Part shown: positions 7,953-48,785 of the stretch, piece after piece | How the letters are laid out: every line of letters begins with the position of its first letter | How positions within the stretch are numbered: position 1 is the stretch's first letter | Virus genome (UHGV): UHGV-0218015 | DNA length: 64,000 nucleotides | Direction: 5' to 3' (one strand) | Origin: a virus | The notes under the pieces: generated by a model | Told to the model about the DNA's origin: nothing | Seen by the model: the letters and a program-made list of their open reading frames with translations, nothing else | The model's database searches: none | Position numbers and translations under genes: made by a program

Positions 7953-8001
7953 ACGTGAACCAACACTACAATTGTATTAAACCTTATAAGGATTAAGTAA
8001 A

Positions 8002-9858
8002 ATGGCTAAAGAGTTTATTGACAATCAAAACGACGTTGTGACTGGTGCTGCTGGTGCTGCTGGTGCTGCTGCAGATCCAATTCCGTCTTTCGGTGGCGCG
8101 GGAGCTGCTACTGTGGATAATACCAATGCGGCCAACGCTTTTGGTGGGATGTCTAAAAACATCTCCACTTTCGATAAAGCTTTCGGATACATGTCCTTCG
8201 TGTCCACTGCTTCTCAGTTCACTAGCCTGATTGAGAAGATGGCGGAGAAGAACACATACCTGCGTAACTTCCGTTGGGGTGTCATTGACGGCATCAACTC
8301 TGAAATGGGTTCTGCTGCATACGTGGCTGGTCCGTCCGGCGATAACCATAACGAATGGCTCTACGGCATCCTGTTCTTTGAACATGGCCAGTCCATCCGT
8401 TTCTACGAAATCAACGGTAAAGAAAACTACTACACCCTGGCGCAGCTGTTCAGTCAAGAAGGTGTGATGAACAACATCACTAACCAGATTGCAACTCAAC
8501 ACAATCTGCCGAGCGTACAGTTCATGGTAATGAACTGCGTACCGGAACTGGGTAAAACCATGAACGAAGAATGGGCTAACCAGCTCATGGGCCAGATTGC
8601 ACTGGGTATCTTCGGTCGTCATTCTGGCTACCTGGGCTACCTGAAAATGACCCGTTCTGATCGCTTCACCGCGCAAGTTAGCGTAGTTGAAGAAGGTTCT
8701 GTAACTGACGTTAACGGTTCCGCACAGCGTGCTGACCTGATGGTTGTGGTTGACCATACTCGTACCGGCAACAACGATAATAACCCGACGCTGTTCTCTT
8801 CTGAACGCCTCCAGAATTATCCGAGCGTTGCAGGTGTTGGTTACATCAACCTCCGCCATAAAGGTAAACCTCAGACTCTGACTAACGGTACTCAGGACCT
8901 GCGTCAGCTGGAAGCCGAAGTGGTTGTTTCTCTGATGGATTCTCAATCCTCTGGGGCAATGGCACCTATCGAGCGTCAGCTGATTGAACTGGCCGCGTTC
9001 GCACAAATCGCCACTATCGGCGGCTGGCGTGAACGTTTCATGCAATCGCTGAACAAAACCGATCGTCGCTTCTCCCGCGTTCTGGAGTATGTAGAATGGG
9101 GCAGCGAAAAACCTGACCTGAGCAAAATCGACGGTAACCGTGAAGTTATCGAGAAATGCCTGGACACCTTCGCTAACCCGACTGCGGCTCTGGTGGTGAA
9201 CCATCGTGCAGGTAACGGTATCGGTGGTCTGTCTACTCTCCTGAGTGAAATCGGGATGGGTAACACCAACGCACTGTATACTCTGTTCAACATCCTGGAT
9301 AACATGGCCAGCAACGGCGCGACTAAGTTCAGCACTCGCTTCAAAGCGCTGCTGGGCAAGGACACCAACTTTGAGTGCAAACATGTTGTTATTGCCGGTT
9401 GCCCGACTATCTCTGGTCAGTATTTCAGCAACAGCCAGAAACGTAGCTTCCAGGATATGGACTTGGTTTCCGCTCTGACTAAAGTGGGCGACAACCAGCG
9501 TGATGCGATCGACTACATCAGTGCACAGTCCTACTCTCACCGCTACCTGAATGCGCGTGACCAGCGTCTGTACCTGCTGAAAATGGCTGCGTCCATGTTC
9601 GGTAGCAAACAGCCGCAGGTAACGGGTGAAGCGTCTGACCTGGCGATCAATCCGTTGTTTGGTAAGGCACTGGTGGAATACATCACCGAAAACTGCAACT
9701 TCCAGGTGAACGGTGTTACCGCAGCGAACAGCCTCACTCACTCTGTGTTTGTTAACACGGGTAATGAGAACTTCGCTCTGTCTGGTAGCGGTCCTAACGC
9801 ATTTGGTAGCGATTTCGGTATGTCCTTCGCTGCAACTGACTGGCGTCCGACTTTCTAA
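8002..9858 (+). CDS. abundant 618-aa protein; candidate phage-nucleus shell protein (chimallin-like) or major structural protein
   Basis: extreme codon bias (652-codon stop-free antisense shadow), tandem promoters, strong terminator; Gly/Ala/Phe-rich termini with SFGG/AFGG motifs; sits immediately upstream of the RNAP beta-prime gene; functional call is inference. Confidence 0.55.
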   Translation: MAKEFIDNQNDVVTGAAGAAGAAADPIPSFGGAGAATVDNTNAANAFGGMSKNISTFDKAFGYMSFVSTASQFTSLIEKMAEKNTYLRNFRWGVIDGINSEMGSAAYVAGPSGDNHNEWLYGILFFEHGQSIRFYEINGKENYYTLAQLFSQEGVMNNITNQIATQHNLPSVQFMVMNCVPELGKTMNEEWANQLMGQIALGIFGRHSGYLGYLKMTRSDRFTAQVSVVEEGSVTDVNGSAQRADLMVVVDHTRTGNNDNNPTLFSSERLQNYPSVAGVGYINLRHKGKPQTLTNGTQDLRQLEAEVVVSLMDSQSSGAMAPIERQLIELAAFAQIATIGGWRERFMQSLNKTDRRFSRVLEYVEWGSEKPDLSKIDGNREVIEKCLDTFANPTAALVVNHRAGNGIGGLSTLLSEIGMGNTNALYTLFNILDNMASNGATKFSTRFKALLGKDTNFECKHVVIAGCPTISGQYFSNSQKRSFQDMDLVSALTKVGDNQRDAIDYISAQSYSHRYLNARDQRLYLLKMAASMFGSKQPQVTGEASDLAINPLFGKALVEYITENCNFQVNGVTAANSLTHSVFVNTGNENFALSGSGPNAFGSDFGMSFAATDWRPTF

Positions 9859-9887
9859 TAAGTTGGTAAGTAGTAAGCAGTAGTTGA

Positions 9888-9929
9888 GGGACAGGGGAAA
9901 ACCCCCTGTCCCTTCCCTCTCTTTTTTTG
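9888..9929 (+). terminator. intrinsic terminator
   Basis: gggacagggg aaaa ccccctgtccc followed by T-run. Confidence 0.7.
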
Positions 9930-9942
9930 TTGAGGATTCGGC

Positions 9943-11310
9943 GTGGAACATAAACTAGAATATTACGGGATTTCAGGGCGACTAATTAGTCACGATAAAA
10001 TGCTACGTGACTGTATACAAGAAGCGGAGGAAAAAGGCTACAAACCCCCGATTATTATCAATGACGTTGCTGCAACGATGGATACCATCGAAGCGTCAGA
10101 GATGATTAACCAAATACTTCAAAACCGAATCGTTGATGAAACACTCAACTCGGCTCCTATTTGCAGTCTGACCTGCGAATCACCTATTACCCATCGTTAT
10201 AATCTTGGGTTACGTTGCCCACATTGTGGTCATGTTGTTTCTGAACATCGGATTACGTCCGAAGTTTGGCTACGTGCACCCGATGAGATAGGTAACTTTA
10301 TCAATCCACGTTTTTGGTCTCTCTTTAATGCTTTCTTTGGCTCTAAGCTGAAAAAATTTAATCGTAACAAAGTGACGGTAGAGCGTGGTTCTGATTTGCT
10401 GCTATGGCTAATCGATCCGTACTACCATCCAGAAAAGGACGAAGGAACACGTGCTCGTGTGGTGAAAAGAATACTTGGTGAATACAGGTTCGAACGGGGA
10501 ATTCGAAACTTTATCGACCACCATCGAACCGTCTTTAATATCCTTACGTCCCCAGAAGCCTGGAAGGAGATTTATCCACCGACGAAAAACAACCGTTATG
10601 AGAGTGAACGCGTACGCTTAGAATGGCGTGAGTTCTTTCAGGAACAATCGTTCTCATTCTTTCCAAGACACCTTCCGATTATTTCATCGAAACTGATCGT
10701 TACAGAGGAGCGCCGACAAGGTATCTTTATCGATCCCGTTTACACCAGTGCCATCGATGCAGTAAAAAATGTGGCGTTGTTGTACACGAATGCACGTCGT
10801 ATCGAACCACGATTTATTATTCGTCGTGCGATCAAAGCGAATCGACAACTTGCGTATTTCTATATTGACCATCGTCAGGAAGTGATGGAAGGTAAACCTG
10901 GGTTCTATCGGGCAAAACTCGGGTCAACGCACGTACCGTGGGGCGGACGTGTGACTATCTCTCCTATCTCTGAACCTCACGATGCGTTGAAAGTTATTGC
11001 GCCTTGGCGTTGGTTAGTTCCTTTGGCGAGTGTTCACATTGAGAACAAGTTAGGTCGACGTGACTACACACCTCGACAGTGTGAACGAATTATTGCATTC
11101 GCGGCAATGCAGTATGTACCGTTGGTGCATGAAATTATTAATGAGCTGATTAAAGAATCCCCCGGCGGATTCGGTTTAATGTTGGAAGTTCTACGTAACC
11201 CAACATTGGTTCAGCTTTCTATTCAGACGTTGTTTATCTCAGCGGTACTGACAGATGTAACACAATGTTCTCTGCGTATTTCTGATCGCGTCATCAAAGC
11301 ACCTAATGCT
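9943..11310 (+). CDS. RNA polymerase beta-prime-like subunit, N-terminal part, exon 1
   Basis: GTG start with RBS; Zn-ribbon C..C...CPHCGH; GKPGFYRAKLGSTHVPWGGRVTISP and RNPTLVQLSIQ resemble bacterial beta-prime [23 protein letters not shown] and RAPTLHRLGIQ (from memory); coding sense ends at ...VIKAPNA. Confidence 0.7.
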
Positions 11311-15649: not shown

Positions 15650-16294
15650 ATGGTCAATAAAAACTTCCTTAAAGAGAAATGGCTTTACCCGCAGACTGAG
15701 CCGGATCAACAGGGCCGTACCCGTAAACTGGGCATTGAATTGAACGAATTCAATGGTGATGTGGAACTGATGAAATTCCACTACTCCTTTGGTAAAGGCG
15801 AAGGTCTTTATTTCACCGCAGGCTATACTGTTTGCGTTGATATCTTTGAAACCCTGCGTACGGTGATGCAGAAACCCGAAAAAGTCGTTTTCAAATGGGA
15901 AGATGCAAAAGGTAAGAAGGCACCGGTTAGCTTACACGTAGGTCGTGATGAAAACCTGACACCGTTCTTTGCACTGAGCGGCGAGATCCCAGGGGTTGGT
16001 GCGCGCCAGAAGAAATTCTATTTCACTTATCCGAAAGGTTATCGTGTTTTCCGTAATGGACAACTGGTCTCCGATCTGGAACTGGCAGAGCGTCAGCTAC
16101 GCGCGTTCCTGAAAAATGCGGATGTATTCCTGGAAGATTTCCGTGACAACTATAAACCGCGTGAGTTTAATAACGCAGGTGGTGGTAGTTACGGTCGCGG
16201 TGGTTACAATAACGGCGGCAATGGCGGCGGTTATAACAACCAGTCTGGTGCAAAAGCCCCAACACCAACTAACGATTTTGACGATATTATTTAA
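15650..16294 (+). CDS. putative ssDNA-binding-like protein with SSB-type C-terminal tail
   Basis: Gly/Tyr/Asn-rich linker GGGSYGRGGYNNGGNGGGYNNQSG followed by acidic tip NDFDDII, resembling E. coli SSB MDFDDDIPF tip (from memory); N-terminal domain unassigned. Confidence 0.4.
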   Translation: MVNKNFLKEKWLYPQTEPDQQGRTRKLGIELNEFNGDVELMKFHYSFGKGEGLYFTAGYTVCVDIFETLRTVMQKPEKVVFKWEDAKGKKAPVSLHVGRDENLTPFFALSGEIPGVGARQKKFYFTYPKGYRVFRNGQLVSDLELAERQLRAFLKNADVFLEDFRDNYKPREFNNAGGGSYGRGGYNNGGNGGGYNNQSGAKAPTPTNDFDDII

Positions 16295-16313: not shown

Positions 16314-16345
16314 TAGCCCCAGGATATCCTGGGGCTCTTTATCGT
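16314..16345 (+). terminator. hairpin terminator (weak T-run)
   Basis: agccccagga tatc ctggggct. Confidence 0.4.
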
Positions 16346-16427
16346 GTATGTGTGTAGAATACAGTCGAAGTTATCTGAGATAGATTTTATCTTAGTGCAC
16401 GACTATGCTATTCCTGGAGATTTTAAA

Positions 16428-18056
16428 ATGCGTATTGAAAAGAATCGTGACCGTTTAGTGATAAAATACGGTGAAAAGGAGGTCGCGTTTAATGGTTTCC
16501 GAAACGGACGTAAAGACGTGAATGTGCCAGACGTACGCGATAGTTTCGGACAGATCGTAACGCATGATAAAATCATGTTCATGGAAATCGATCGTTATTG
16601 GTCAACTTTAACGCCCGAAGAGAAAAGCGAACTGTTTTCAGTTTACGAAGAATTAGAGTTGTTAGCTAATGAACCCCCGGAAGTTATTCGTGAACACGTT
16701 CCCACACTCGTCGCGAGAATTGCTAAATTTCATCACGCAGATAGATTCCGCCAGCTTTATCCACACGGCTCGGTGTGGATTCCTCAAAACGTCCACGAAA
16801 CGTACGAAGAGATGTCGTCTAATTATCCAAAAGAGATGACGTATATTGTACAAGATTATTACGAACTGGTGATTTTGTCTTTGATGACAAAACCGTTTAT
16901 TCCCGTATTCTTGATTTTGGACGCTTTTCCTGCAACGCGTGCTTCTGTTGAGTCGAAGCGCAAAAGTGTTTATAACCTGACCTACTGCATGGAGCTATTG
17001 TCGGATACCGAGATTGCCACGCTGCCAGCCATTACAAAGTTGCGCGAGTTTTTAGTGTCGGTGATTTCGAAAGTTCAAGACGGGGGCAGTAAAGGACCCA
17101 ATACTGCAAATCTTACCGTCCTGGCATCTATCTGCGGCTACGGCACGGATATGGTAGAGGAATACATCGTAGCGTTCGCTGTTATCCGTTTAATTGCGAT
17201 GAAGTTAATCGGTGCCGAGCTACCACCGGGTACGATGGTTGAAAACAACATCGTGGCGGGAATGTATTTCAATATTCGACAAGAAATTGAAACGGGCTTC
17301 GCGGGAAAAATTTCCGGTCAAAACGTGATGCTAAAGGCGAATCCTGAGAAAATCATGTTCAACGGCGAGAAGGGGAAAACTTCGTCGATTGACTTGGTTC
17401 AAGCTCGGACTAAAGCACCGATGAAAGAATTCGTTCGTACCCAAGAATTCTTTAATGACTACCGTCGTGCGGTGCGTGCTTTGAATCTCGATATTGCTCC
17501 CGCAGATGTGAAAGTGCTGATAGATTCTATCAACATTAATCATCAGTATCCGTTCTACGAACTCTACGAATGGTTGGTGGCGGCAGTGATGCACCGATTT
17601 GCAGATCGTCGTACATACAAGGAAATCGACTCGGAAGCATTTAAGAACGCGATGGGTATATCCCAAGCCGTTTACATCTATTACGGAATGCCTGAGATTG
17701 CACAGCTGTTAAGTTGTGAGATGATCCGGGCACCACTAAACGGCGGGTATCCTATCGAACCAATCGATAATGAGATTAAAATAAAAACGGATAGATATTA
17801 TCCACAGGCATACCGTAAGCATCGTAATACTTACGAACAGTCAACGTTGAAGGATTCTCTCAGCTTGTTGGTTCGTGAGCATATTGCACCGTTCAACTTC
17901 AATCTCAGGGCAACACCGGAAGCAGCCAGAATGTTACGGTGTGGGACAGTGATGTTGGACTATTCGCCTCATCCGCGACTTCAGAACATGTTAGCAGAAT
18001 TTCTGTTAATTCAAAACAGAAAGAAATGTGAAGAAGTGGCATGGTTTAATCAATAA
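16428..18056 (+). CDS. hypothetical protein
   Basis: ORF 16344..18056; start moved to ATG 16428 with GGAG RBS. Confidence 0.5.
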   Translation: MRIEKNRDRLVIKYGEKEVAFNGFRNGRKDVNVPDVRDSFGQIVTHDKIMFMEIDRYWSTLTPEEKSELFSVYEELELLANEPPEVIREHVPTLVARIAKFHHADRFRQLYPHGSVWIPQNVHETYEEMSSNYPKEMTYIVQDYYELVILSLMTKPFIPVFLILDAFPATRASVESKRKSVYNLTYCMELLSDTEIATLPAITKLREFLVSVISKVQDGGSKGPNTANLTVLASICGYGTDMVEEYIVAFAVIRLIAMKLIGAELPPGTMVENNIVAGMYFNIRQEIETGFAGKISGQNVMLKANPEKIMFNGEKGKTSSIDLVQARTKAPMKEFVRTQEFFNDYRRAVRALNLDIAPADVKVLIDSININHQYPFYELYEWLVAAVMHRFADRRTYKEIDSEAFKNAMGISQAVYIYYGMPEIAQLLSCEMIRAPLNGGYPIEPIDNEIKIKTDRYYPQAYRKHRNTYEQSTLKDSLSLLVREHIAPFNFNLRATPEAARMLRCGTVMLDYSPHPRLQNMLAEFLLIQNRKKCEEVAWFNQ

Positions 18057-18086: not shown

Positions 18087-19793
18087 ATGGCAATGAAACT
18101 TTTGAAACTGCAAATGTATCCGGTGTACGAAATCCCAGAGCAGATTCGTCGTCGTATCGGGTTCTTTGAATCGCAGCACGCTTTGGATGAGTTAGTGGAT
18201 GTGGTTGCAGAGCACGGTGATAAAGCAACAGGTTCTCGGGCTTATCAAGAAGCCCTGGGTCAGATTGTGGGCTTCGATAATACTCCAACCGGTATTGAAC
18301 GTCCATTCATTAACGTGAGCGATAATGAATCACAGCCAATCCACTTTGCGTATAACTCTCGTGATACGGGTGTGTATAACTTCGTGGCGATTATTGTTTC
18401 GAACTCGTTAAATGACACACGGACTCAAGAAACGCGTTATGTTGTTTCTGGGTATACATCTCAGGCAGAGCGGTCCATGTTTAATCACCTGCCGGATGAC
18501 ATGGTTCTGTATATCAACGAAATATACGGGTTACAATGTACGTATATCACCGATGCGTTTGGCGGGCGTCGTATCAACCCGGATTCTTTCCGTCTGATAG
18601 ACAACTATGTGTTGTCTAAGACACTAACTGCGGACAGCTATGTGGAGCACACCATCGACGTTATTTCTACCGCGAAAGCGGCTGATATGGTACGTAAAGT
18701 GGTGAAGGCAGGCGAACAGATTGAGCTGGATAATAACACGGTTATCTCCGCTAATTGCCAGCGTGCGCCACAGTTGATGTCTAGTCAATTAACCCGACCG
18801 GAATCTTTCGTGACGGCAATCTCCAATTCCTTTATTAACACCATGGGGATTGAAACGGAGCTGAGCGCAGTAGATAGTTTCTTCGCAGGAGATCATTCTC
18901 TTGGGGTAGAATCTGAACTTAGTCAGATCGGCGTGATGCGTAACTTCAATAGTTACGAATTGGTGAAGGCGTTTAGAACAGCCATATCCAACGCCACGTC
19001 AGATATGACTAGTGGTTGGAACGTTGCGAACCGTGCAGCATTTAAACTGTGTGACTTGCGTAATGCGGTGGTCAATCCCGAAGATGTGGATGCTGCAATT
19101 GCGCACTCGCTGGCTGTCGCGGCCCGTCGTGGTTTTGGTGAAATCGAACGCACCGATGATTGGGTAGGGCGTAATAACTATTCTACTCAGGGTTCATTAG
19201 TGGCGTTTGATTTAGCCATGTTACTGGGGCCTGTGGTCACCCGTAATCTTATCGGTGAAGTGACTTTCTTCTACGATAACCGTATGGCGGATATTGCAAC
19301 ACCTCCTCTGTTGCAAGTGTCAAAACACAACGTTGGGGCATTAACTGAAGACGGATTACCGGATGTATTAGCACGTCGCTTCTTAAGTGACTTACAAGGC
19401 GTATTCTTGCAAGTGACTAAGCATAACCGTATTCGTTGTAAGATGACTGTAACGTGTATCGTTGGGGTGGTTTCGCGTATTGAAATCGAAATCGATGGCG
19501 AGCTGCCTGAGTATTATACACATGCGTCGTTCATGAAAGCACGTCTGCATTGTGGTACAACAACTGACCTTCAGTACACGAACCAGTTAGCTGCAGAAAC
19601 AGCGCAGCTGATGAATAAAGTGGAAGAAGGGTACCAAGAATTCAACCGTGGTCAGAACCGTTCGAATATCCTGTCGAATATTCCAACTGCCCCTGTGTCT
19701 GCGCCTACGAGCCTGGGGAGTTTCGGTAGCTTTGGCGGTAGCGATATGTCAACGCCTGCGCCAGTGTCTGGCTTTGGTGCATTCGGCGAGTAA
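18087..19793 (+). CDS. hypothetical protein (568 aa) with FG-motif C-terminal tail
   Basis: C-terminus SLGSFGSFGGSDMSTPAPVSGFGAFGE. Confidence 0.55.
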   Translation: MAMKLLKLQMYPVYEIPEQIRRRIGFFESQHALDELVDVVAEHGDKATGSRAYQEALGQIVGFDNTPTGIERPFINVSDNESQPIHFAYNSRDTGVYNFVAIIVSNSLNDTRTQETRYVVSGYTSQAERSMFNHLPDDMVLYINEIYGLQCTYITDAFGGRRINPDSFRLIDNYVLSKTLTADSYVEHTIDVISTAKAADMVRKVVKAGEQIELDNNTVISANCQRAPQLMSSQLTRPESFVTAISNSFINTMGIETELSAVDSFFAGDHSLGVESELSQIGVMRNFNSYELVKAFRTAISNATSDMTSGWNVANRAAFKLCDLRNAVVNPEDVDAAIAHSLAVAARRGFGEIERTDDWVGRNNYSTQGSLVAFDLAMLLGPVVTRNLIGEVTFFYDNRMADIATPPLLQVSKHNVGALTEDGLPDVLARRFLSDLQGVFLQVTKHNRIRCKMTVTCIVGVVSRIEIEIDGELPEYYTHASFMKARLHCGTTTDLQYTNQLAAETAQLMNKVEEGYQEFNRGQNRSNILSNIPTAPVSAPTSLGSFGSFGGSDMSTPAPVSGFGAFGE

Positions 19794-19816
19794 AAAGATT
19801 AATCAAGGACTCTTAA

Positions 19817-21172
19817 ATGAAAATTATTGAATTCTATAAATCGTTTCTTAAATCACAAGGATTCGATTTTGAAAACGATTTACTCACTCGTGACGGTGGC
19901 GAACCGGCAGAGTTTACGTACAACAAAGTGAAGCGCCGTTTGGCGCTTCCTACCCCAGCGATGATTAAGCGCGGTATGGAAGACGATGATGGGCGTGAAT
20001 GTCAGGCATTTCATCCGCTGTGTGAATCGGTGCTGGCAGGCGAATCAGGGACAATTCGTTTTCTGAAGAAATCCATTAATGCGAACCTGTTCATTCGTTC
20101 CTTTGCATTAATCGACGCGATTCTGGAAACGGGGGCAAGTGGCAAAGCAGTACGTTCAGCTTCCTACAAGAAGTTCTTAACAGAACAGATTTGCGAAGGG
20201 ATGAAAGATCCGACGTTCGACGAACGTTTGGTGAAATCCTGGGAAGCGGTGAAAGCGTTCGTCTATGGACAATTGGAAAAAGATAAAAAGCACAAGATCA
20301 CCCAGCTTTTTATTGCATCTGATTTAGTTATTGACGGCGTGAAGTTTAACCGCGTAGCTAATTATCGAAATATGTTCGAAGAAGAATCGTTAGATGGTAC
20401 TGCAATGTACTTCTCTGCGAAGCTTCAACGTAAACAAGACAAAATCATTATCCATCGTTTACTGACCACCGTGTTCGGTTGGTATCCGAGTGTAACAGGG
20501 TCTAATGATTCGCGTCCGTATTTCGGTTGCTTAGCACGTGGCTGGGCGCAGTACGTTGTGAATTACAATAACGTCGTTAAGGGATTGCGCGACCACACAT
20601 CTTTACGTCCGTTGGAAGATGAATGGATTTCTCAGCTGGACAATATGGATATTTACGATAACGTCATTCAGACATTACCGTATAACACCGGTCCACGTTC
20701 TGACAGCCCTGAACGTGATACTACGGCGCATGATTTCCGTATCGATCGTTCGCAGGCCCCGCAGCAGATCCCACAGAAACGTGCATCGGATGCGGATAAA
20801 GCGGATAAGTCCGATCCGATGGAATTCTTCCGTGCACGTGAACGTAACATGGCCACGCAAAGTCCTTATGGGAATTTGACGCCAGCGATGCAACGTTATG
20901 CTGAGCAACACGGAACAACTAACCCTGCCAACGGTATGGTAAGTCGAATTTCTGTTGTGGATGCGTTTGGCGGTGAGCGCAAGGTGTCACCTTTCGGTGG
21001 TCAGAGTAGTTTTGGTGTAGGGAATACCGGAGGCTCTTTGGCAAGTACCTTTGGTGGAGGGAATAATTCTTTCAGCGGGGATGTCGGTGGGACTAGCGCG
21101 TTTAGCACGAGTTCAGCATTTGCAACGAACAGCAGTTTCGGTGGATTTGCAACTTCGGCATTTACGCGTTAA
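19817..21172 (+). CDS. hypothetical protein (451 aa) with FG-repeat-like C-terminal tail
   Basis: last 80 aa Gly/Ser/Phe-rich with AFGG, PFGG, SFGV, TFGG, SFGGF. Confidence 0.55.
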   Translation: MKIIEFYKSFLKSQGFDFENDLLTRDGGEPAEFTYNKVKRRLALPTPAMIKRGMEDDDGRECQAFHPLCESVLAGESGTIRFLKKSINANLFIRSFALIDAILETGASGKAVRSASYKKFLTEQICEGMKDPTFDERLVKSWEAVKAFVYGQLEKDKKHKITQLFIASDLVIDGVKFNRVANYRNMFEEESLDGTAMYFSAKLQRKQDKIIIHRLLTTVFGWYPSVTGSNDSRPYFGCLARGWAQYVVNYNNVVKGLRDHTSLRPLEDEWISQLDNMDIYDNVIQTLPYNTGPRSDSPERDTTAHDFRIDRSQAPQQIPQKRASDADKADKSDPMEFFRARERNMATQSPYGNLTPAMQRYAEQHGTTNPANGMVSRISVVDAFGGERKVSPFGGQSSFGVGNTGGSLASTFGGGNNSFSGDVGGTSAFSTSSAFATNSSFGGFATSAFTR

Positions 21173-21183
21173 GTGAAGTATAA

Positions 21184-21212
21184 AAGAAGGGACACGGTCC
21201 CTTCTTTTTTTA
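21184..21212. terminator. bidirectional hairpin terminator
   Basis: gaagggac acg gtcccttc flanked by A-run and T-run, between convergent genes. Confidence 0.6.
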
Positions 21213-21533
21213 ATCATTACCGATGGTGCTAATAATCTCACTGACCGTTCCGACGTCGGGTACGATTAGTTGCGTGATTTCAGGGGTGAAATTCATGGGG
21301 TCTTCTATCCCGTTTAATAGCATCATTGGATAGATGATGATATCGGCGTAACCTTTGAGTTTACAGTAGGCGTAGAAATTGTGGACCTCAGGCCAACTGT
21401 AGCGTGGGTCAACATTTTCTATTTTAGTTTTCGGGTGTTTACGCAGATAGTCTGTGTAATCGTGCATCACTTTCCATGTCGTGGTGTAAGGCGCAGGTAT
21501 GAATTCTTCTAGGGTAATAAAATTGTCTAACAT
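21210..21533 (-). CDS. hypothetical protein (107 aa)
   Basis: isolated minus-strand ORF. Confidence 0.45.
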   Translation of the reverse strand: MLDNFITLEEFIPAPYTTTWKVMHDYTDYLRKHPKTKIENVDPRYSWPEVHNFYAYCKLKGYADIIIYPMMLLNGIEDPMNFTPEITQLIVPDVGTVSEIISTIGND

Positions 21534-46099: not shown

Positions 46100-47371
46100 A
46101 TGGCAAATTTCGCAAAAACTCGCGCCGCTCGTGAATCGATGGAAGCGGCCGATGAAGTAATCGACGGTATCAGCAACGTTGAACCGGCAGAAGAGAACCT
46201 GGACGTCCAACTTGCGGACGTTGCATCTATCGACGGTCAGCTCGATCAGCTGGAAACCGACGGTGAAACCCTGGCTGCCGATACCGAGCGTACTGAAGAC
46301 GCTATCGAACAGGCGGAAGAAGCCGTTGCTAACGGTGAAGAAATGCCGGAAGAAGCGGTTGCCCTGCACGAAGTGGCACAGGAATCCATCGCACGTCGTT
46401 GGTGCCTGGAACGTACTAAACTGGCTCGCGAATCCTATCGCCGTGGTCGTGGTATGACTGCTGCTGCCCAGGAAGGTTGGAAAGAAACCCTGAAAGATCT
46501 TTACGATCGTTTCATTCAGTTCTGTAAAGAAGTGATTGCGAAGATCAAAGACCTGAAACTGAAATATTTCAACGTCGGTAAGACTGCACAGAAACGTGCG
46601 AAGAAATATCAGGAAATGCTGCGTAAGCTGGGCAAACAGAAGAAAGATGAGATCTCTGGTGGGTTTATCACCAAGCTGTCTATCGAAGGTAAATTCGATG
46701 CTGCTGGCTCTATCGCTATTGCGAAAGAAGTTACCGCTGGTAAAGCTAAAGGTTCCATCAGTGCTCTGGAAAAACAGGCCGGTGAAGCTGTAACTGCTGT
46801 GAGCAAGGGTGACGACGATTCCTTCAAAGCAATGCGCGGCGATCAGCCTGTAGACCTGTTCGGTAAAGCAGCGTCTAAACTGCATTCTCTGCCGAATTTT
46901 GAAAAAGGCGATGCGTCTAAATTGCTGGCACTGCCAGGCAACGCGTACATTCAGGCTGGTACTAAAGAACTGGCTGGCGGCCACAAGTTCACCGCAATTG
47001 CTTTCATGAGCACCGGTGACGCTTCTGACGATAAAGACGTGAAAACTCCGTCTGTTTCTGAAATGGCTGGTGCTGCTTCTGCTCTGGAAGCAATCGGTAA
47101 AGGCTTCGAAGCCGTACTGAAAGATTTCCGTGCTTACGATTCTGAAATCGTGAAACTGCAACAGGCTGCTGAAAAAGCAACCAAAGAGCTGAATAACGAG
47201 AAAGACGAAAGCAAATGGGATGGCCTGCGTAACGCACGTCAAGCTGCTGATTGGTCTGTTAAGAACTACCAGACCCTGAACCGCGCCGTTAGCTATGTTG
47301 CTAACACCGTTATTAGCGGTCTGAATGGTTACCTGGGTGCTGGTATCGGTGCTTACGAAAAATCTAAATAA
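46100..47371 (+). CDS. abundant paralog A (423 aa); putative processed virion-internal protein
   Basis: extreme codon bias (395-codon antisense shadow); acidic N-terminal region with ARES, AQES motifs; shares RKLGKQKKDEISGGFI and C-terminal GYLGAGIGAYEKSK with downstream paralog. Confidence 0.6.
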   Translation: MANFAKTRAARESMEAADEVIDGISNVEPAEENLDVQLADVASIDGQLDQLETDGETLAADTERTEDAIEQAEEAVANGEEMPEEAVALHEVAQESIARRWCLERTKLARESYRRGRGMTAAAQEGWKETLKDLYDRFIQFCKEVIAKIKDLKLKYFNVGKTAQKRAKKYQEMLRKLGKQKKDEISGGFITKLSIEGKFDAAGSIAIAKEVTAGKAKGSISALEKQAGEAVTAVSKGDDDSFKAMRGDQPVDLFGKAASKLHSLPNFEKGDASKLLALPGNAYIQAGTKELAGGHKFTAIAFMSTGDASDDKDVKTPSVSEMAGAASALEAIGKGFEAVLKDFRAYDSEIVKLQQAAEKATKELNNEKDESKWDGLRNARQAADWSVKNYQTLNRAVSYVANTVISGLNGYLGAGIGAYEKSK

Positions 47372-47453
47372 TAATTTAGATTCGTAGTTCCGTACAGTTC
47401 TTGAAATAAATCATCAGGGGAACAACGCGTTCCCCTTAGAGGAAAAGCTTAAA

Positions 47454-48719
47454 ATGGCGAATTTCTACAAAAACAAAATTGCTCGTGAGTCTATGGAGTC
47501 TACCGCTACTGTAGTTCCAGACGGCATCGAACTGCCAGCAGAATCCGTAGAAGGCACTCTGGCCGATATCGAGCATGACACCAAACCGATCGAAGCCCTG
47601 GACGCTGACGCTGAACTGCTGGCAGAAGACGGCGACGAAACTGACGCACAGCTGGATGTTCTGGATGAAGCTCAGGCCGCTGCTGACGGTGAAGGTGCTG
47701 GCGAAGACGGCGAAGACCCGATGGACGCCGAAGAAGATATGCCGGACGACGCTGCGACCGCGCTGGACGTTGCTCAGGAATCTATCCGTTCTCGTTGGAA
47801 CTTCGATCACCGTTCTTCCGTTGCACACGAATCCTACGGTTCTCGTAACCGTCGCCAGGTGGCTCGTGAATCCCTGTGGGAAGACATTAAAGCCTTCCTG
47901 GGTCGTATCTGGGAATGGCTGAAAGAACAAGGCCGTAAGATCAAAGATCGTTGGCTGAAATTCTCCAACCAGGGTAAATCTATCCAGGCGCGTGCTAAGA
48001 AATACGATGAAGTTATTCGTAAGCTGGGCAAACAGAAGAAAGATGAGATCTCTGGTGGGTTTATCAAGTCTCTGTCTATCGATGGCAAGTTCGTCGGCGA
48101 TAATATTCCGAAACTGAAAGGTATCCTTAGCCAGGTTTCCACATTCTATAGCACTAAGATGCCTTCCATGGCCGCTAAAGCTGCTGAAATGGTTTCCGAT
48201 GTTACCAAAGGTAATGGTGCTAAAGTTGAAAAACTGAAAGCCGACTTTACCGAACTGGCCGAAAAAGACAGTCAACAAAACTTCAAACTCGGTAACATGG
48301 CGTTGAAAACCGAGTATGACAACGAAGGCGGTTTCAGCTCCACCTTTGTTGCAGCAGAAAATAGCGTTGAAACTAGTGTGAAAACTCCGTCTGCTGGCGA
48401 ATTGGCTAAAATCAACGCCTTCTTCAATGAAGTGGGCAAACAGATTGAGAAGAACGTTCAGGATTATCGTAAAGTCGAAAGCGCGCGGAAAACTTTTGAA
48501 GATAATATCGATAAGCTCCTGAAAGAAGTCGATAAAGTTAAGATCGACGAAAAACCGGAACTGACCGAAGCTGTACGTGCTGCCCGTCGTTACATCACCA
48601 GCATTAACCAGGCCCTGTCTCTGGGTGAGAAAGTTATTGCTTCTACTCAGAAACATCTGGCTGGCGGTCTGAACGGCTATATCTCCGCAGGTATCGCTGC
48701 TTACGAAAAATCTAAATAA
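47454..48719 (+). CDS. abundant paralog B (421 aa); putative processed virion-internal protein
   Basis: paralog of 46100..47371 (MANF.K...ARESMES, AQESIRSRW, RKLGKQKKDEISGGFI, AGIAAYEKSK); 436-codon antisense shadow; strong terminator. Confidence 0.6.
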   Translation: MANFYKNKIARESMESTATVVPDGIELPAESVEGTLADIEHDTKPIEALDADAELLAEDGDETDAQLDVLDEAQAAADGEGAGEDGEDPMDAEEDMPDDAATALDVAQESIRSRWNFDHRSSVAHESYGSRNRRQVARESLWEDIKAFLGRIWEWLKEQGRKIKDRWLKFSNQGKSIQARAKKYDEVIRKLGKQKKDEISGGFIKSLSIDGKFVGDNIPKLKGILSQVSTFYSTKMPSMAAKAAEMVSDVTKGNGAKVEKLKADFTELAEKDSQQNFKLGNMALKTEYDNEGGFSSTFVAAENSVETSVKTPSAGELAKINAFFNEVGKQIEKNVQDYRKVESARKTFEDNIDKLLKEVDKVKIDEKPELTEAVRAARRYITSINQALSLGEKVIASTQKHLAGGLNGYISAGIAAYEKSK

Positions 48720-48737
48720 TCTCTGATTGTTTAGTAA

Positions 48738-48785
48738 GAGAACCACCCTATTACAGGGTGGTTCTCTCTTTTCTTTTTTTTTTTC
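48738..48785 (+). terminator. intrinsic terminator (strong)
   Basis: gagaaccaccct attac agggtggttctc followed by about 19-nt T-run. Confidence 0.75.

What the first reader, a model, noticed from the sequence alone, without database searches (positions are those of the whole stretch)
18087..21172. FG-type short motifs in disordered tails of three neighbouring proteins
The candidate shell protein (8002..9858) carries PSFGG, NAFGG, KAFGY at its N-terminus and NAFGS, DFGM at its C-terminus. The 568-aa protein ends SLGSFGSFGG...SGFGAFGE. The 451-aa protein ends in an 80-residue Gly/Ser/Phe-rich tail with AFGG, PFGG, SFGV, TFGG, SFGGF. Recurrence of (S/A)FG(G) motifs in low-complexity tails of clustered genes suggests a shared interaction mode: for example docking to the shell lattice by mimicking shell-protein tails, or FG-repeat-like cohesive contacts relevant to selective transport across a proteinaceous shell. 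I know of no described precedent, so this is speculative.
Basis: inference. Interest (0 to 1): 0.65.

Follow-up and report, generated by a model that had tools for sequence, protein, structure and literature searches.

The report
Matched sticky tails on phage-nucleus proteins
Three phage-nucleus proteins (the shell protein, the import factor PicA/Imp1 and a third shell-associated protein) carry floppy, uncharged tails studded with Phe-Gly motifs, and the tail chemistry changes together in all three from phage to phage, which suggests the tails hold these proteins together at the shell.

Summary
The window is a nucleus-forming jumbo phage (Chimalliviridae, SPN3US/phiEaH2-like). The "shell protein" is chimallin (ChmA). 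The 568-aa protein is the PicA/Imp1 import-factor orthologue. The 451-aa protein belongs to the phiKZ gp70 / PhiPA3 gp64 family. Homologues of all three are experimentally shell-associated. Of 191 ORFs in the window, these three rank highest for FG clustering.

AlphaFold2 predicts both C-terminal tails as disordered. They are about 5% charged and Gly/Ser/Thr-rich, with (S/A)FG motifs.

FG itself is not conserved. Sister clades carry LG repeats, SLL(D/G) or NPF, and distant chimalliviruses carry Q/P/M-rich or Arg/Asp-rich tails. The flavour is nevertheless matched within each genome across the ChmA N-tail, the ChmA C-terminal linker, the PicA tail and the gp70 tail. Tail F:L is 20:2 here against 3:30 in phiEaH2 (p = 7e-10), while the cores do not differ (p = 0.25).

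My best reading is that these are co-evolving sticker-and-spacer tails that tether or cluster PicA and gp70 on the chimallin lattice through weak, multivalent, like-with-like contacts. They are analogous to FG-nucleoporins, not homologous. The mechanism is inferred, and I found no description of it in the literature I could search.

The parts
8002..9858 (+). chmA, the chimallin major nuclear-shell protein (618 aa)
   Evidence: 53% identical over 91% of its length to Asesino gp039. GFP-tagged gp039 forms the ring around phage DNA (PMC11724907). hhalign against 201phi2-1/PhiPA3/phiKZ/Goslar ChmA gives probability 82%, E = 1e-5, collinear over 480 columns. An nvRNAP beta' gene follows directly, as in phiKZ gp54/gp55.
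8002..8157 (+). ChmA disordered N-tail (residues 1-52) with PSFGG (8089) and NAFGG (8140). These are the clade-specific stickers.
   Evidence: The equivalent N-tail of 201phi2-1 ChmA (residues 1-47) is unresolved and dispensable for assembly (PMC9365700). Relatives carry APLGG/SSLG, DFGSLG, GFSVG or QQLGQG at this position, matching their PicA/gp70 tails.
8164..8205 (+). Probable ChmA N-terminal docking segment (NTS), ISTFDKAFGYMSFV, which contains KAFGY
   Evidence: The FDxAF(G/D/E)W motif is conserved across all SPN3US-like ChmA whatever their tail type. Its position corresponds to NTS residues 48-61 of 201phi2-1. The assignment rests on alignment and inference.
9790..9855 (+). ChmA C-terminal linker plus tip (residues 597-618: GPNAFGSDFGMSFAATDWRPTF), downstream of the conserved CTS1-like FALSGSG
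   Evidence: F:L is 4:0 here against 1:4 in phiEaH2 and 2:4 in SPN3US. SDFG is conserved. NAFGS is clade-specific.
15650..16294 (+). chmC/imp6 orthologue (214 aa) with an N/G/Y-rich disordered tail and an acidic-aromatic tip, DFDDII. This is context and a negative control: its tail does not follow the F/L switch.
   Evidence: It hits phrog_3284, as does PhiPA3 gp61. The ChmC disordered tail drives RNA condensates (PMC11077065). phiKZ Imp6 binds Imp1 directly.
16344..18056 (+). phiKZ gp68-like nvRNAP subunit (570 aa). Context only; it has no tail.
   Evidence: It hits phrog_3209, as does PhiPA3 gp62. BLASTP E = 2e-6, collinear over 400 aa.
18087..19793 (+). picA/imp1 orthologue (568 aa), the essential nuclear protein-import factor family
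   Evidence: It hits phrog_3141 at 7e-128, and the same family is hit by PhiPA3 gp63 at 4e-170. Synteny gp67-gp68-gp69-gp70-RNAP beta is conserved. hhalign to PhiPA3 gp63 is weak but collinear (probability 52%).
19677..19790 (+). PicA disordered C-terminal tail (residues 531-568) with SFGSFGG and GFGAFGE (FG at 19722, 19731, 19773, 19782)
   Evidence: AF2 pLDDT is 32-42 in the tail against about 85 for residues 1-530. 6% of residues are charged. FG enrichment against the within-tail shuffle has p = 0.0006.
19817..21172 (+). phiKZ gp70 / PhiPA3 gp64-family nuclear-shell-associated protein (451 aa)
   Evidence: It hits phrog_3520, as does PhiPA3 gp64. tblastn matches PhiPA3 gp64, Goslar gp173 and others. 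PhiPA3 gp64 localises to the shell. The family has 1101 representatives at 50% identity.
20672..21169 (+). p451 disordered C-terminal region (residues 286-451). The FG sticker-spacer tail proper is residues 385-451 (20969-21169), with FG at 20966, 20993, 21011, 21050 and 21137.
   Evidence: AF2 gives pLDDT 85-97 for the globular domain 1-285 and 33-40 for the tail. The tail is 5% charged, 22% G, 22% S and 14% F, with F every 3-13 residues.

Best explanation
The FG motifs are hydrophobic 'stickers' set in intrinsically disordered, almost uncharged Gly/Ser/Thr/Asn 'spacer' tails.

The tails sit on three partners of the phage nucleus:
- the C-terminus of the import factor PicA/Imp1 (p568);
- the C-terminus of the gp70/gp64-family shell-associated protein (p451);
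- the free N-tail and C-terminal linker of the shell protein chimallin.

Shown: the identities, the predicted disorder, the restriction of such tails to these proteins, and the fact that tail chemistry is lineage-specific yet matched among the three proteins within each genome.

Inferred: the tails contact one another, or one shared site on the lattice, through weak, multivalent, like-with-like interactions. Each chimallin protomer offers one or two stickers. PicA offers about 4 and gp70 about 5-9. Avidity would then tether PicA and gp70 to the chimallin lattice and may help gather them into the focal import site seen by microscopy. Because partners must stay compatible, a change of sticker (L to F on the branch leading to this phage) is fixed in all tails together.

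The system works like a sticker-spacer or FG-type cohesive domain. It is not homologous to nucleoporins.
For: (1) Identities and shell association.

(2) Disorder: AF2 pLDDT is 32-42 for both tails, next to confident globular domains.

(3) Specificity:
- These proteins are the top 3 of 191 window ORFs for FG clustering.
- In the complete phiEaH2 genome (999 ORFs), dense LG repeats occur only in the PicA and gp70 orthologues: 8-9 LG per 50 aa against 4 or fewer elsewhere.

(4) Conserved grammar despite sequence turnover across 17 SPN3US-like genomes:
- gp70 tail length is 48-75 aa.
- Hydrophobic residues make up 17-28%.
- G/S/N/T/Q/A make up 0.62-0.75 in 16 of the 17 genomes and 0.49 in L011.
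- Charged residues are at most 8% in 16 of the 17 genomes and 19% in L011.
- Strains 97% identical differ by one repeat-unit indel.

(5) Concerted switch of F and L:
- Tail F:L is 20:2 in the window against 3:30 in phiEaH2 (odds ratio 100, p = 7e-10). The cores of the same proteins are 74:115 against 68:136 (p = 0.25).
- Spearman correlation of F/(F+L) between tails is 0.67-0.89 over 11-12 clade representatives.
- The F-clade is nested inside L-type clades on the core tree, and a second F-type clade branches deep.

(6) Motif-level matches within genomes:
- NSLLD with SLLGG.
- QQLG in the ChmA N-tail with QQTLG in gp70 (L018).
- Tripeptide sharing is higher within than between genomes: p = 0.008 for PicA-gp70 and p = 0.003 for ChmA N-tail-PicA.

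(7) The matching extends across the family:
- Arg/Asp-rich gp70 tails (47-69% charged in RSF1, PCH45, DT01 and pVa-21) go with Arg/Asp-rich ChmA N-tails (32-58%), ChmA C-tails (17-47%) and PicA tails (29-43%).
- The gp70 core stays at 23-29% charged throughout.
- In phiKZ, 201phi2-1 and RAY, the ChmA N-tail and the gp70 tail are both Q/P-rich; in PhiPA3 the ChmA N-tail is Q/T-rich.

(8) Tail-coding DNA segments share no more than 10 nt, so gene conversion does not explain the matching.

(9) Precedent: the neighbouring ChmC uses its disordered tail to form condensates. The ChmA N-tail is dispensable for lattice assembly, so it is free for another role.
Against: - No interaction was tested here.
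- phiKZ Imp1 did not pull down gp70 when the two were co-expressed in E. coli. Weak multivalent contacts could escape that assay, and ChmA was absent.
- C-terminal sfGFP fusions of phiKZ, PhiPA3 and Goslar PicA still form the perinuclear punctum.
- Some PicA orthologues have almost no tail (RAY, PCH45), so the tail cannot be universally required for PicA localisation.
- Independent evolutionary events are few: about two F/L switches and about three flavour classes.
- A composition-similarity control (ChmA core against gp70 tail) also scored as significant, which shows that phylogenetic structure inflates such tests.
- The ChmA contribution is small, at 2 stickers in the N-tail.
- phiKZ gp70 has been treated as an intranuclear protein, so topology relative to the ChmA tails is unknown.
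Confidence: 0.5

Rival explanations
1. Tail mimicry of chimallin's own docking segments. Here the PicA and gp70 tails are flexible leashes whose stickers or C-terminal tips insert into the same grooves on ChmA cores that bind the ChmA CTS1/CTS2 (or NTS) of neighbouring protomers. Accessory proteins would then plug into the lattice or replace a protomer's tail.
For: [quoted passage not shown]
- The ChmA C-terminal linker/tip co-varies in F/L with the PicA tail (rho = 0.89).
- An aromatic-x-hydrophobic C-terminus (FNF, FTL, FKL, FTF) ends ChmA in 8/12, PicA in 5/12 and gp70 in 5/12 clade representatives, against 1/57 background ORFs. In some genomes it is nearly identical: L013 has SSFNF / DSFNF / GGFSF, and L018 has HFTF / PFSF / NFTF.
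- PhiPA3 and 201phi2-1 PicA and gp70 both end LGLL or MGLI.
Against: - In this window the tips do not match (ChmA ...WRPTF, PicA ...AFGE, gp70 ...AFTR).
- In clades 1-3 PicA ends LLD, GGL or FGE.
- C-terminal GFP fusions of PicA still localise, so a free C-terminal tip is not required there.
- The conserved NTS motif does not change with tail type.
- Multiple repeats are not needed for a single groove.
Confidence: 0.2
2. The tails have no specific partner. They would be entropic spacers or solubility tags whose repeats expand by slippage, and the shared flavour would reflect lineage-specific mutational or compositional drift.
For: - The tails turn over rapidly by repeat indels.
- The gp70 family shows extreme flavour diversity.
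- Cores show a slight parallel drift in F/(F+L), 0.26-0.45, correlated with the tails.
- The phylogenetic confound was demonstrated.
Against: - The F/L switch is about 100-fold in the tails and not significant in the cores of the same proteins.
- The ChmC disordered tail in the same genomes keeps its own N/G/Y flavour throughout.
- Such repeats occur nowhere else in a 243-kb relative genome.
- Tail length, hydrophobic fraction and lack of charge are held within narrow limits.
- There is no DNA-level homogenisation.
Confidence: 0.15
3. All three tails bind one further partner, either a phage hub protein or a host factor such as a chaperone or protease adaptor. The sticker type would then track that partner or the host rather than the other tails.
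For: - PhiPA3 gp63 and gp64 co-purify with the hub protein ChmB.
- Sticker type differs between phage clades with different hosts.
- Short linear motifs of the form xPhiGG in an otherwise variable ChmA N-tail look like a ligand for a folded pocket.
Against: - ChmB homologues are reported only in Pseudomonas phages, so no candidate hub is known in this clade.
- Erwinia phages carry several different tail types (LG, SLL, NPF), so host genus does not predict type.
Confidence: 0.1

Closest known systems
ChmC/Imp6 C-terminal disordered region (PhiPA3 gp61; Enustun et al. 2024, PMC11077065)
   Same: It is a neighbouring gene in the same conserved block and is associated with the nuclear shell. It has a C-terminal low-complexity, low-pLDDT tail, which was shown to be needed for condensate formation.
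   Different: The ChmC tail is N/G(Y)-rich with an acidic end, acts together with RNA, and keeps the same flavour in every clade examined. The PicA and gp70 tails carry hydrophobic stickers (F or L), are uncharged, and switch flavour in step with the ChmA tails.
Chimallin NTS/CTS1/CTS2 tail-swapping lattice contacts (Laughlin et al. 2022, PMC9365700)
   Same: Flexible terminal extensions mediate protein-protein contacts in the shell. The ChmA C-terminal end co-varies with the accessory tails, and some relatives share the C-terminal aromatic tip.
   Different: NTS and CTS are short, ordered-on-binding segments with conserved motifs. The tails here are longer, repetitive and not conserved in sequence, and in this window they do not copy the ChmA tip.
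FG-repeat domains of eukaryotic nucleoporins (cohesive GLFG/SxFG type)
   Same: The grammar is the same: a disordered, nearly uncharged G/S/T/N(Q)-rich spacer with Phe-Gly stickers every roughly 5-15 residues, on proteins attached to the boundary of a DNA compartment, one of which is the import factor. Other gp70-family members carry perfect MFGAPQQAS, NPFG, SLFG/GLFG and GFG/RFG repeats.
   Different: There is no homology (no Pfam hit). There are only 4-9 repeats rather than tens. Phe is freely replaced by Leu, and in other clades by entirely different chemistries. No transport receptors or pore scaffold are known. Import selectivity in these phages maps to folded surfaces of PicA/Imp1.

Membership tests
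Chimallin (ChmA) major nuclear-shell protein | Sequence homology to an experimentally verified ChmA | tested here: met
   53% identity over 91% of the length to Asesino gp039, which forms the nuclear ring. Profile-profile match to 201phi2-1/PhiPA3/phiKZ/Goslar ChmA has probability 82%, E = 1e-5, over the full length. Direct HMM searches of PDB sequences found nothing.
Chimallin (ChmA) major nuclear-shell protein | Position directly upstream of the nvRNAP beta' (phiKZ gp55-like) gene, in the conserved block | tested here: met
   9943-11442 hits phrog_2987, RNA polymerase beta subunit. PhiPA3, 201phi2-1, Goslar, RAY, RSF1 and others show the same order.
Chimallin (ChmA) major nuclear-shell protein | Self-assembly into a square lattice through NTS/CTS segments | not testable with these tools
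   Only sequence motifs consistent with an NTS (FDKAFGY) and a CTS1-like segment (FALSGSG) were seen.
PicA / Imp1 nuclear import factor | Homology to phiKZ gp69 / PhiPA3 gp63 | tested here: met
   Both p568 (7e-128) and PhiPA3 gp63 (4e-170) match phrog_3141 end to end. Direct hhalign is weak (probability 52%, E = 1.5e-4) but collinear.
PicA / Imp1 nuclear import factor | Conserved gene order gp67(ChmC)-gp68-gp69-gp70-RNAP beta | tested here: met
   the same order is seen in 19 IMG/VR loci and 11 reference phages.
PicA / Imp1 nuclear import factor | Perinuclear punctum, and a requirement for selective import | not testable with these tools
   Known only for phiKZ, PhiPA3 and Goslar.
phiKZ gp70 / PhiPA3 gp64 shell-associated protein family | Homology of the N-terminal domain of about 290 aa | tested here: met
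   phrog_3520 is hit by both p451 and PhiPA3 gp64. tblastn matches PhiPA3 gp64, Goslar gp173 and RAY. The profile search finds 1101 representatives, aligned over positions 1 to about 300.
phiKZ gp70 / PhiPA3 gp64 shell-associated protein family | Long low-complexity C-terminal disordered region | tested here: met
   AF2 pLDDT is below 50 from residue 286 onwards apart from short helices. All 146 surveyed representatives have about 160 aa beyond the domain, of varied low-complexity flavour.
Nucleoporin FG-repeat domain | Sequence-family membership (Pfam Nucleoporin_FG and related models) | tested here: not met
   No Pfam family matched any of the four tails at E <= 10.
Nucleoporin FG-repeat domain | Many FG repeats in a disordered, low-charge domain | tested here: inconclusive
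   Disorder and low charge are met, but there are only 4 (PicA) and 5 (gp70) FG motifs, up to 9 in L004/P0002.
Nucleoporin FG-repeat domain | Phe is the conserved functional residue | tested here: not met
   F is replaced by L in the sister clades, and other flavours occur elsewhere.
Nucleoporin FG-repeat domain | Forms a selective barrier crossed by transport receptors | not testable with these tools
   No data exist. Known import specificity maps to the folded surface of PicA/Imp1.

The most novel reading that the evidence does not exclude
The matched sticker tails of PicA/Imp1, gp70 and the chimallin N-tails form a small cohesive, FG-nucleoporin-like phase at the single import site of the phage nucleus. 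This phase would seal the opening in the protein shell and contribute to selective passage. It would be a convergent, viral, protein-only analogue of the nuclear-pore permeability barrier, built from interchangeable sticker chemistries (F, L, M, Y/Q/P, R/D) that must match among partners.
Probability: 0.1. Interest if true: 0.95.

Novelty: new variant of a known kind. Interest (0 to 1): 0.66.

Why it matters
How proteins cross the closed chimallin shell, and how PicA/Imp1 is anchored and gathered into one focus, are open questions. Reviews up to June 2026 describe only folded-surface recognition. The PicA paper notes that AlphaFold gives no PicA oligomer and that other factors must be missing.

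A genome-matched tail code linking ChmA, PicA and gp70 does three things:
- It offers a concrete anchoring and clustering principle that can be tested.
- It assigns a possible role to the dispensable ChmA N-tail and to the uncharacterised, very large gp70 family.
- It predicts incompatibility when tails are swapped between clades, which is relevant to species-specific import and to co-infection exclusion.

It would also be a natural example of interaction specificity between disordered regions that is maintained by co-evolution of sticker chemistry.

Tried and rejected
- Direct phmmer and profile searches of PDB sequences with ChmA, p568 and p451 found nothing useful. Identity had to come from PHROGs, synteny, hhalign and the literature.
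- Pfam gave no domain for any of the three proteins or their tails.
- Gene conversion between tail-coding DNA was rejected, because shared exact words are at most 10 nt.
- A fourth FG-rich ORF, 47436-48746(-), was rejected as the antisense shadow of a real gene.
- A proteome-wide F-for-L shift was rejected, because the cores give p = 0.25.
- An amino-acid-composition cosine test across 18 genomes looked very significant. However, the control (ChmA core against gp70 tail) was also significant, so I do not rely on that test.
- Literature searches for phage nucleus together with FG repeat, C-terminal tail or intrinsically disordered found no description of the PicA or gp70 tails. The published Nature version of the Imp paper and the full text of a 2026 Imp7 preprint were not held.
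- C-terminal tip mimicry of ChmA was considered as the main mechanism. I demoted it because it fails in this window and because PicA-sfGFP fusions localise.


Full report
WHAT THE REGION IS

The window comes from a nucleus-forming jumbo phage (Chimalliviridae) of the SPN3US/phiEaH2/Asesino group. No near-identical record exists in the GenBank phage collection. An IMG/VR contig carries an essentially identical locus (L002).

Gene order from 13.5 to 24 kb reproduces the conserved phiKZ gp65-gp74 / PhiPA3 gp59-gp65 block:
- SbcD
- a gp66-like gene
- ChmC/Imp6 (15650-16294, phrog_3284)
- the gp68-like nvRNAP subunit (16344-18056, phrog_3209; BLASTP E = 2e-6 to PhiPA3 gp62)
- p568 (18087-19793, phrog_3141)
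- p451 (19817-21172, phrog_3520)
- a small antisense gene
- RNAP beta

PhiPA3 gp63 (PicA/Imp1) and gp64 (the phiKZ gp70 homologue) hit the same two PHROGs end to end. tblastn with p451 lands on PhiPA3 gp64 and Goslar gp173.

The 618-aa 'candidate shell protein' is chimallin. It is 53% identical to Asesino gp039, which forms the ring around phage DNA when tagged with GFP (PMC11724907). Its profile aligns over the full length with 201phi2-1/PhiPA3/phiKZ/Goslar ChmA (hhalign probability 82%, E = 1e-5). An nvRNAP beta' gene follows it, as with phiKZ gp54/gp55.

The three proteins are therefore ChmA, the import factor PicA/Imp1, and the gp70/gp64-family protein. In PhiPA3, gp61, gp63 and gp64 all localise to the nuclear shell. 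gp63 and gp64 also co-purify with ChmB, and none of the three was found in virion proteomes (PMC10643120).

THE OBSERVATION

Every quoted motif is present.
- FG counts are 8, 6 and 7, against 3.2, 1.9 and 2.6 expected from composition.
- In p568 and p451 the excess sits in the C-terminal 23 and 70 residues.
- Of 191 ORFs in six frames, the three highest local FG densities are these three proteins. The next candidate is an antisense shadow ORF.
- Within the tails, F is followed by G more often than composition predicts (p = 0.0006 for p568 and 0.03 for p451, with weaker results for the two ChmA ends).
- The consensus is (S/A)FG.
- AlphaFold2 with family alignments gives confident globular bodies (p451 residues 1-285, p568 residues 1-530). 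pLDDT is 32-42 for the FG tails.
- The tails are 5-6% charged and dominated by G, S, T, A and F.

Two of the ChmA motifs are conserved structural features rather than part of the variable system. KAFGY lies in the NTS-like FDxAFxW motif. SDFG lies near the C-terminal segment.

ORTHOLOGUES: FG IS NOT CONSERVED, BUT THE GRAMMAR AND THE MATCHING ARE

I recovered 43 p451 and 34 p568 orthologues. I also paired ChmA, ChmC, PicA and gp70 by genome in 19 IMG/VR loci.

Only relatives at 81-98% identity keep FG. The other clades differ:
- phiEaH2, Asesino and SPN3US carry LGG repeats in both proteins, with APLGG...SSLG in the ChmA N-tail.
- The Caitlin/ChrisDB clade carries GNSLLD and SLLGG.
- L013-L015 carry GSLLGG and GLGGLG.
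- L018 has QQTLG in gp70 and QQLG in the ChmA N-tail.
- The CR5/Derbicus/Phobos clade is again Phe-based (NPF repeats, and GFS/GFK).

Tail length, hydrophobic fraction (0.17-0.28), G/S/N/T/Q/A content (about 0.7) and near-absence of charge are held constant in all but one genome. The sequence itself turns over quickly: two strains 97% identical differ by one repeat unit.

Counting F and L in the four tail segments gives 20:2 for the window and 3:30 for phiEaH2 (odds ratio 100, p = 7e-10). The cores of the same three proteins give 74:115 and 68:136 (p = 0.25). F/(F+L) correlates between tails at rho = 0.67-0.89 over 11-12 clade representatives.

On a neighbour-joining tree of the concatenated PicA and gp70 cores, the window's F-clade is nested inside L-type clades. 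It is sister to phiEaH2/Asesino, with SPN3US next. The simplest history is therefore an L-to-F switch on one branch, in all four tail segments. The second F-type clade is a separate deep branch.

Three further checks:
- Tripeptides are shared within genomes more than between them (PicA-gp70 p = 0.008; ChmA N-tail-PicA p = 0.003).
- Tail-coding DNA segments share no more than 10 nt, so gene conversion is not the cause.
- The ChmC tail in the same genomes keeps its own N/G/Y flavour, so this is not a general property of disordered regions in these phages.

In the complete 243-kb phiEaH2 genome, dense LG repeats exist only in the PicA and gp70 orthologues.

ACROSS THE WHOLE FAMILY

The gp70 family is large: 1101 representatives at 50% identity, aligned only over the N-terminal 300 or so residues. 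It always carries a long low-complexity C-terminal region, but the flavour varies widely. Among 146 diverse representatives I classed:
- 54 as Q/P/M-rich;
- 32 as Arg/Asp-rich;
- 6 as uncharged G/S/N/T sticker-spacer tails;
- 54 as other or mixed.

Nine of the 146 have four or more FG in the tail. These include perfect MFGAPQQAS, NPFG, SLFG/GLFG and GFG/RFG repeats, and one protein has WG repeats. FG-type tails therefore recur in separate lineages but are a minority.

The matching with ChmA holds outside the SPN3US group.
- In RSF1, PCH45, DT01 and pVa-21 the gp70 tail is 47-69% charged. The ChmA N-tail (32-58%), ChmA C-tail (17-47%) and PicA tail (29-43%) are also Arg/Asp-rich.
- In RSF1, ChmA ends ...SRDRYDDRYYDRSDRNDNRW and gp70 ends ...DRDYDRDDRYDRRDRYYRR.
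- In phiKZ, 201phi2-1 and RAY, both the ChmA N-tail and the gp70 tail are Q/P-rich; in PhiPA3 the ChmA N-tail is Q/T-rich.
- The gp70 core stays at 23-29% charged throughout.

There is a caveat. A general composition-similarity test is confounded by phylogeny, because its control (ChmA core against gp70 tail) was also 'significant'. The number of independent events is small.

MECHANISM

Shown:
- the identity of the three proteins;
- predicted disorder of the tails;
- exclusivity of such repeats to these proteins;
- a conserved grammar;
- genome-wise matching of tail chemistry.

Inferred: the tails are sticker-and-spacer regions that contact each other, or a shared site on the lattice, through weak multivalent like-with-like interactions. 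This would tether PicA and gp70 to the chimallin shell and perhaps help gather them into the single import focus.

Three published observations fit this reading:
- The ChmA N-tail is dispensable for lattice assembly and so is free for another role.
- The neighbouring ChmC uses its disordered tail to form condensates.
- The PicA authors note that AlphaFold gives no PicA oligomer although PicA forms one punctum.

Four observations weigh against it:
- phiKZ Imp1 did not pull down gp70 in E. coli.
- PicA-sfGFP C-terminal fusions localise normally.
- Some PicA orthologues have almost no tail.
- The sidedness of gp70 relative to the shell is unknown. PhiPA3 gp64 is on the shell, whereas phiKZ gp70 has been used as a 'nuclear' protein.

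Rivals:
- Mimicry of the ChmA CTS tip. An aromatic-x-hydrophobic C-terminus is shared by ChmA (8/12), PicA (5/12) and gp70 (5/12) clade representatives, against 1/57 background ORFs. It is nearly identical in L013 and L018 but absent in this window.
- Neutral spacers with lineage drift.
- A common third partner.

COMPARISON WITH KNOWN SYSTEMS AND NOVELTY

The closest known relatives in kind are three:
- the ChmC disordered tail, in the same gene block and compartment but with different chemistry and an invariant flavour;
- chimallin's own tail-swapping contacts;
- the cohesive FG domains of nucleoporins.

The resemblance to FG-nucleoporins is one of grammar only. No Pfam match was found. The repeats are few, and Phe is replaceable. 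Known import selectivity maps to folded surfaces of PicA/Imp1.

I found no description of the PicA or gp70 tails or of their co-variation. This covers the primary papers, two reviews up to June 2026 and full-text searches. The Nature version of the Imp paper was not available.

I classify the finding as a new variant of a known kind. It is a co-evolving set of disordered tails linking the shell protein, the import factor and a third shell protein. The stronger reading, a nuclear-pore-like cohesive barrier, remains possible but unlikely.

Noticed in passing
window 16170-16291 (ChmC/Imp6 tail, gene 15650-16294); also L002-L031: ChmC ends in a strongly conserved acidic-aromatic tip: DFDDII here, and SYDDFV, NFDEFL, EYDEMF, GFDDEIPNF, DFDDISF and DFDNDVPW in relatives. 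It looks like the C-terminal protein-docking tip of bacterial SSB (DFDDDIPF, from memory). The ChmC paper describes the region only as an S/D/E-rich electronegative cluster. The tip could be the peptide that binds Imp1.
   Followed up: partly
window 21210-21533 (-): A small gene of about 107 aa on the opposite strand sits between gp70 and RNAP beta. A gene of this size, position and orientation is annotated in the chimalliviruses examined apart from PhiPA3 and PCH45 (201phi2-1 gp127, fnug_86, Goslar gp172, RAY gp246, Moabite gp053, pVa21_219, RSF1 ORF216, DT01 00159, FBKp24_070, Eowyn gp099, phiEaH2 gp215). Its function is unknown, and homology between these genes was not checked.
   Followed up: no
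[not shown]
   Followed up: partly
P0088-P0091, P0093, P0099, P0103, P0115, P0189 (gp70-family representatives): Some distant gp70-family tails are near-perfect tandem repeats: MFGAPQQAS x5, NNPFGNS x5, GGFG/SRFG, and Q(P)A(A)TGWG/N, a Trp-Gly repeat. These are natural 'designer' sticker-spacer sequences.
   Followed up: partly
L021 and L022 (PhiPA3, 201phi2-1): In PhiPA3 and 201phi2-1, PicA and gp70 end with the same C-terminal peptide (…DLGLL / …GGGLGLL, and …NLGLL / …NGMGLI). In PhiPA3, 201phi2-1 and phiKZ the two genes also overlap by about 26-32 nt.
   Followed up: no
window 46100-47371 (+) and 47454-48719 (+): Two tandem paralogous genes (423 and 421 aa, both starting MANF(A/Y)K..RESME and ending YEKSK) lie in a locally GC-rich stretch with strong AT skew. 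Each casts a long antisense shadow ORF.
   Followed up: no
window 8001-10000: The chmA gene is distinctly more GC-rich (0.50) than its flanks (0.42-0.45). It carries a 652-aa antisense shadow ORF (7993-9951 -), consistent with strong codon bias in a very highly expressed gene.
   Followed up: no
L038, L042, L044 (RSF1, PCH45, pVa-21 ChmA): In phages whose tails are Arg/Asp-rich, the ChmA core (residues 100-500) is also more charged: 0.24-0.30 against 0.15-0.22 elsewhere. The shell surface itself may co-adapt with the tail chemistry, or this may be a lineage-wide bias.
   Followed up: partly
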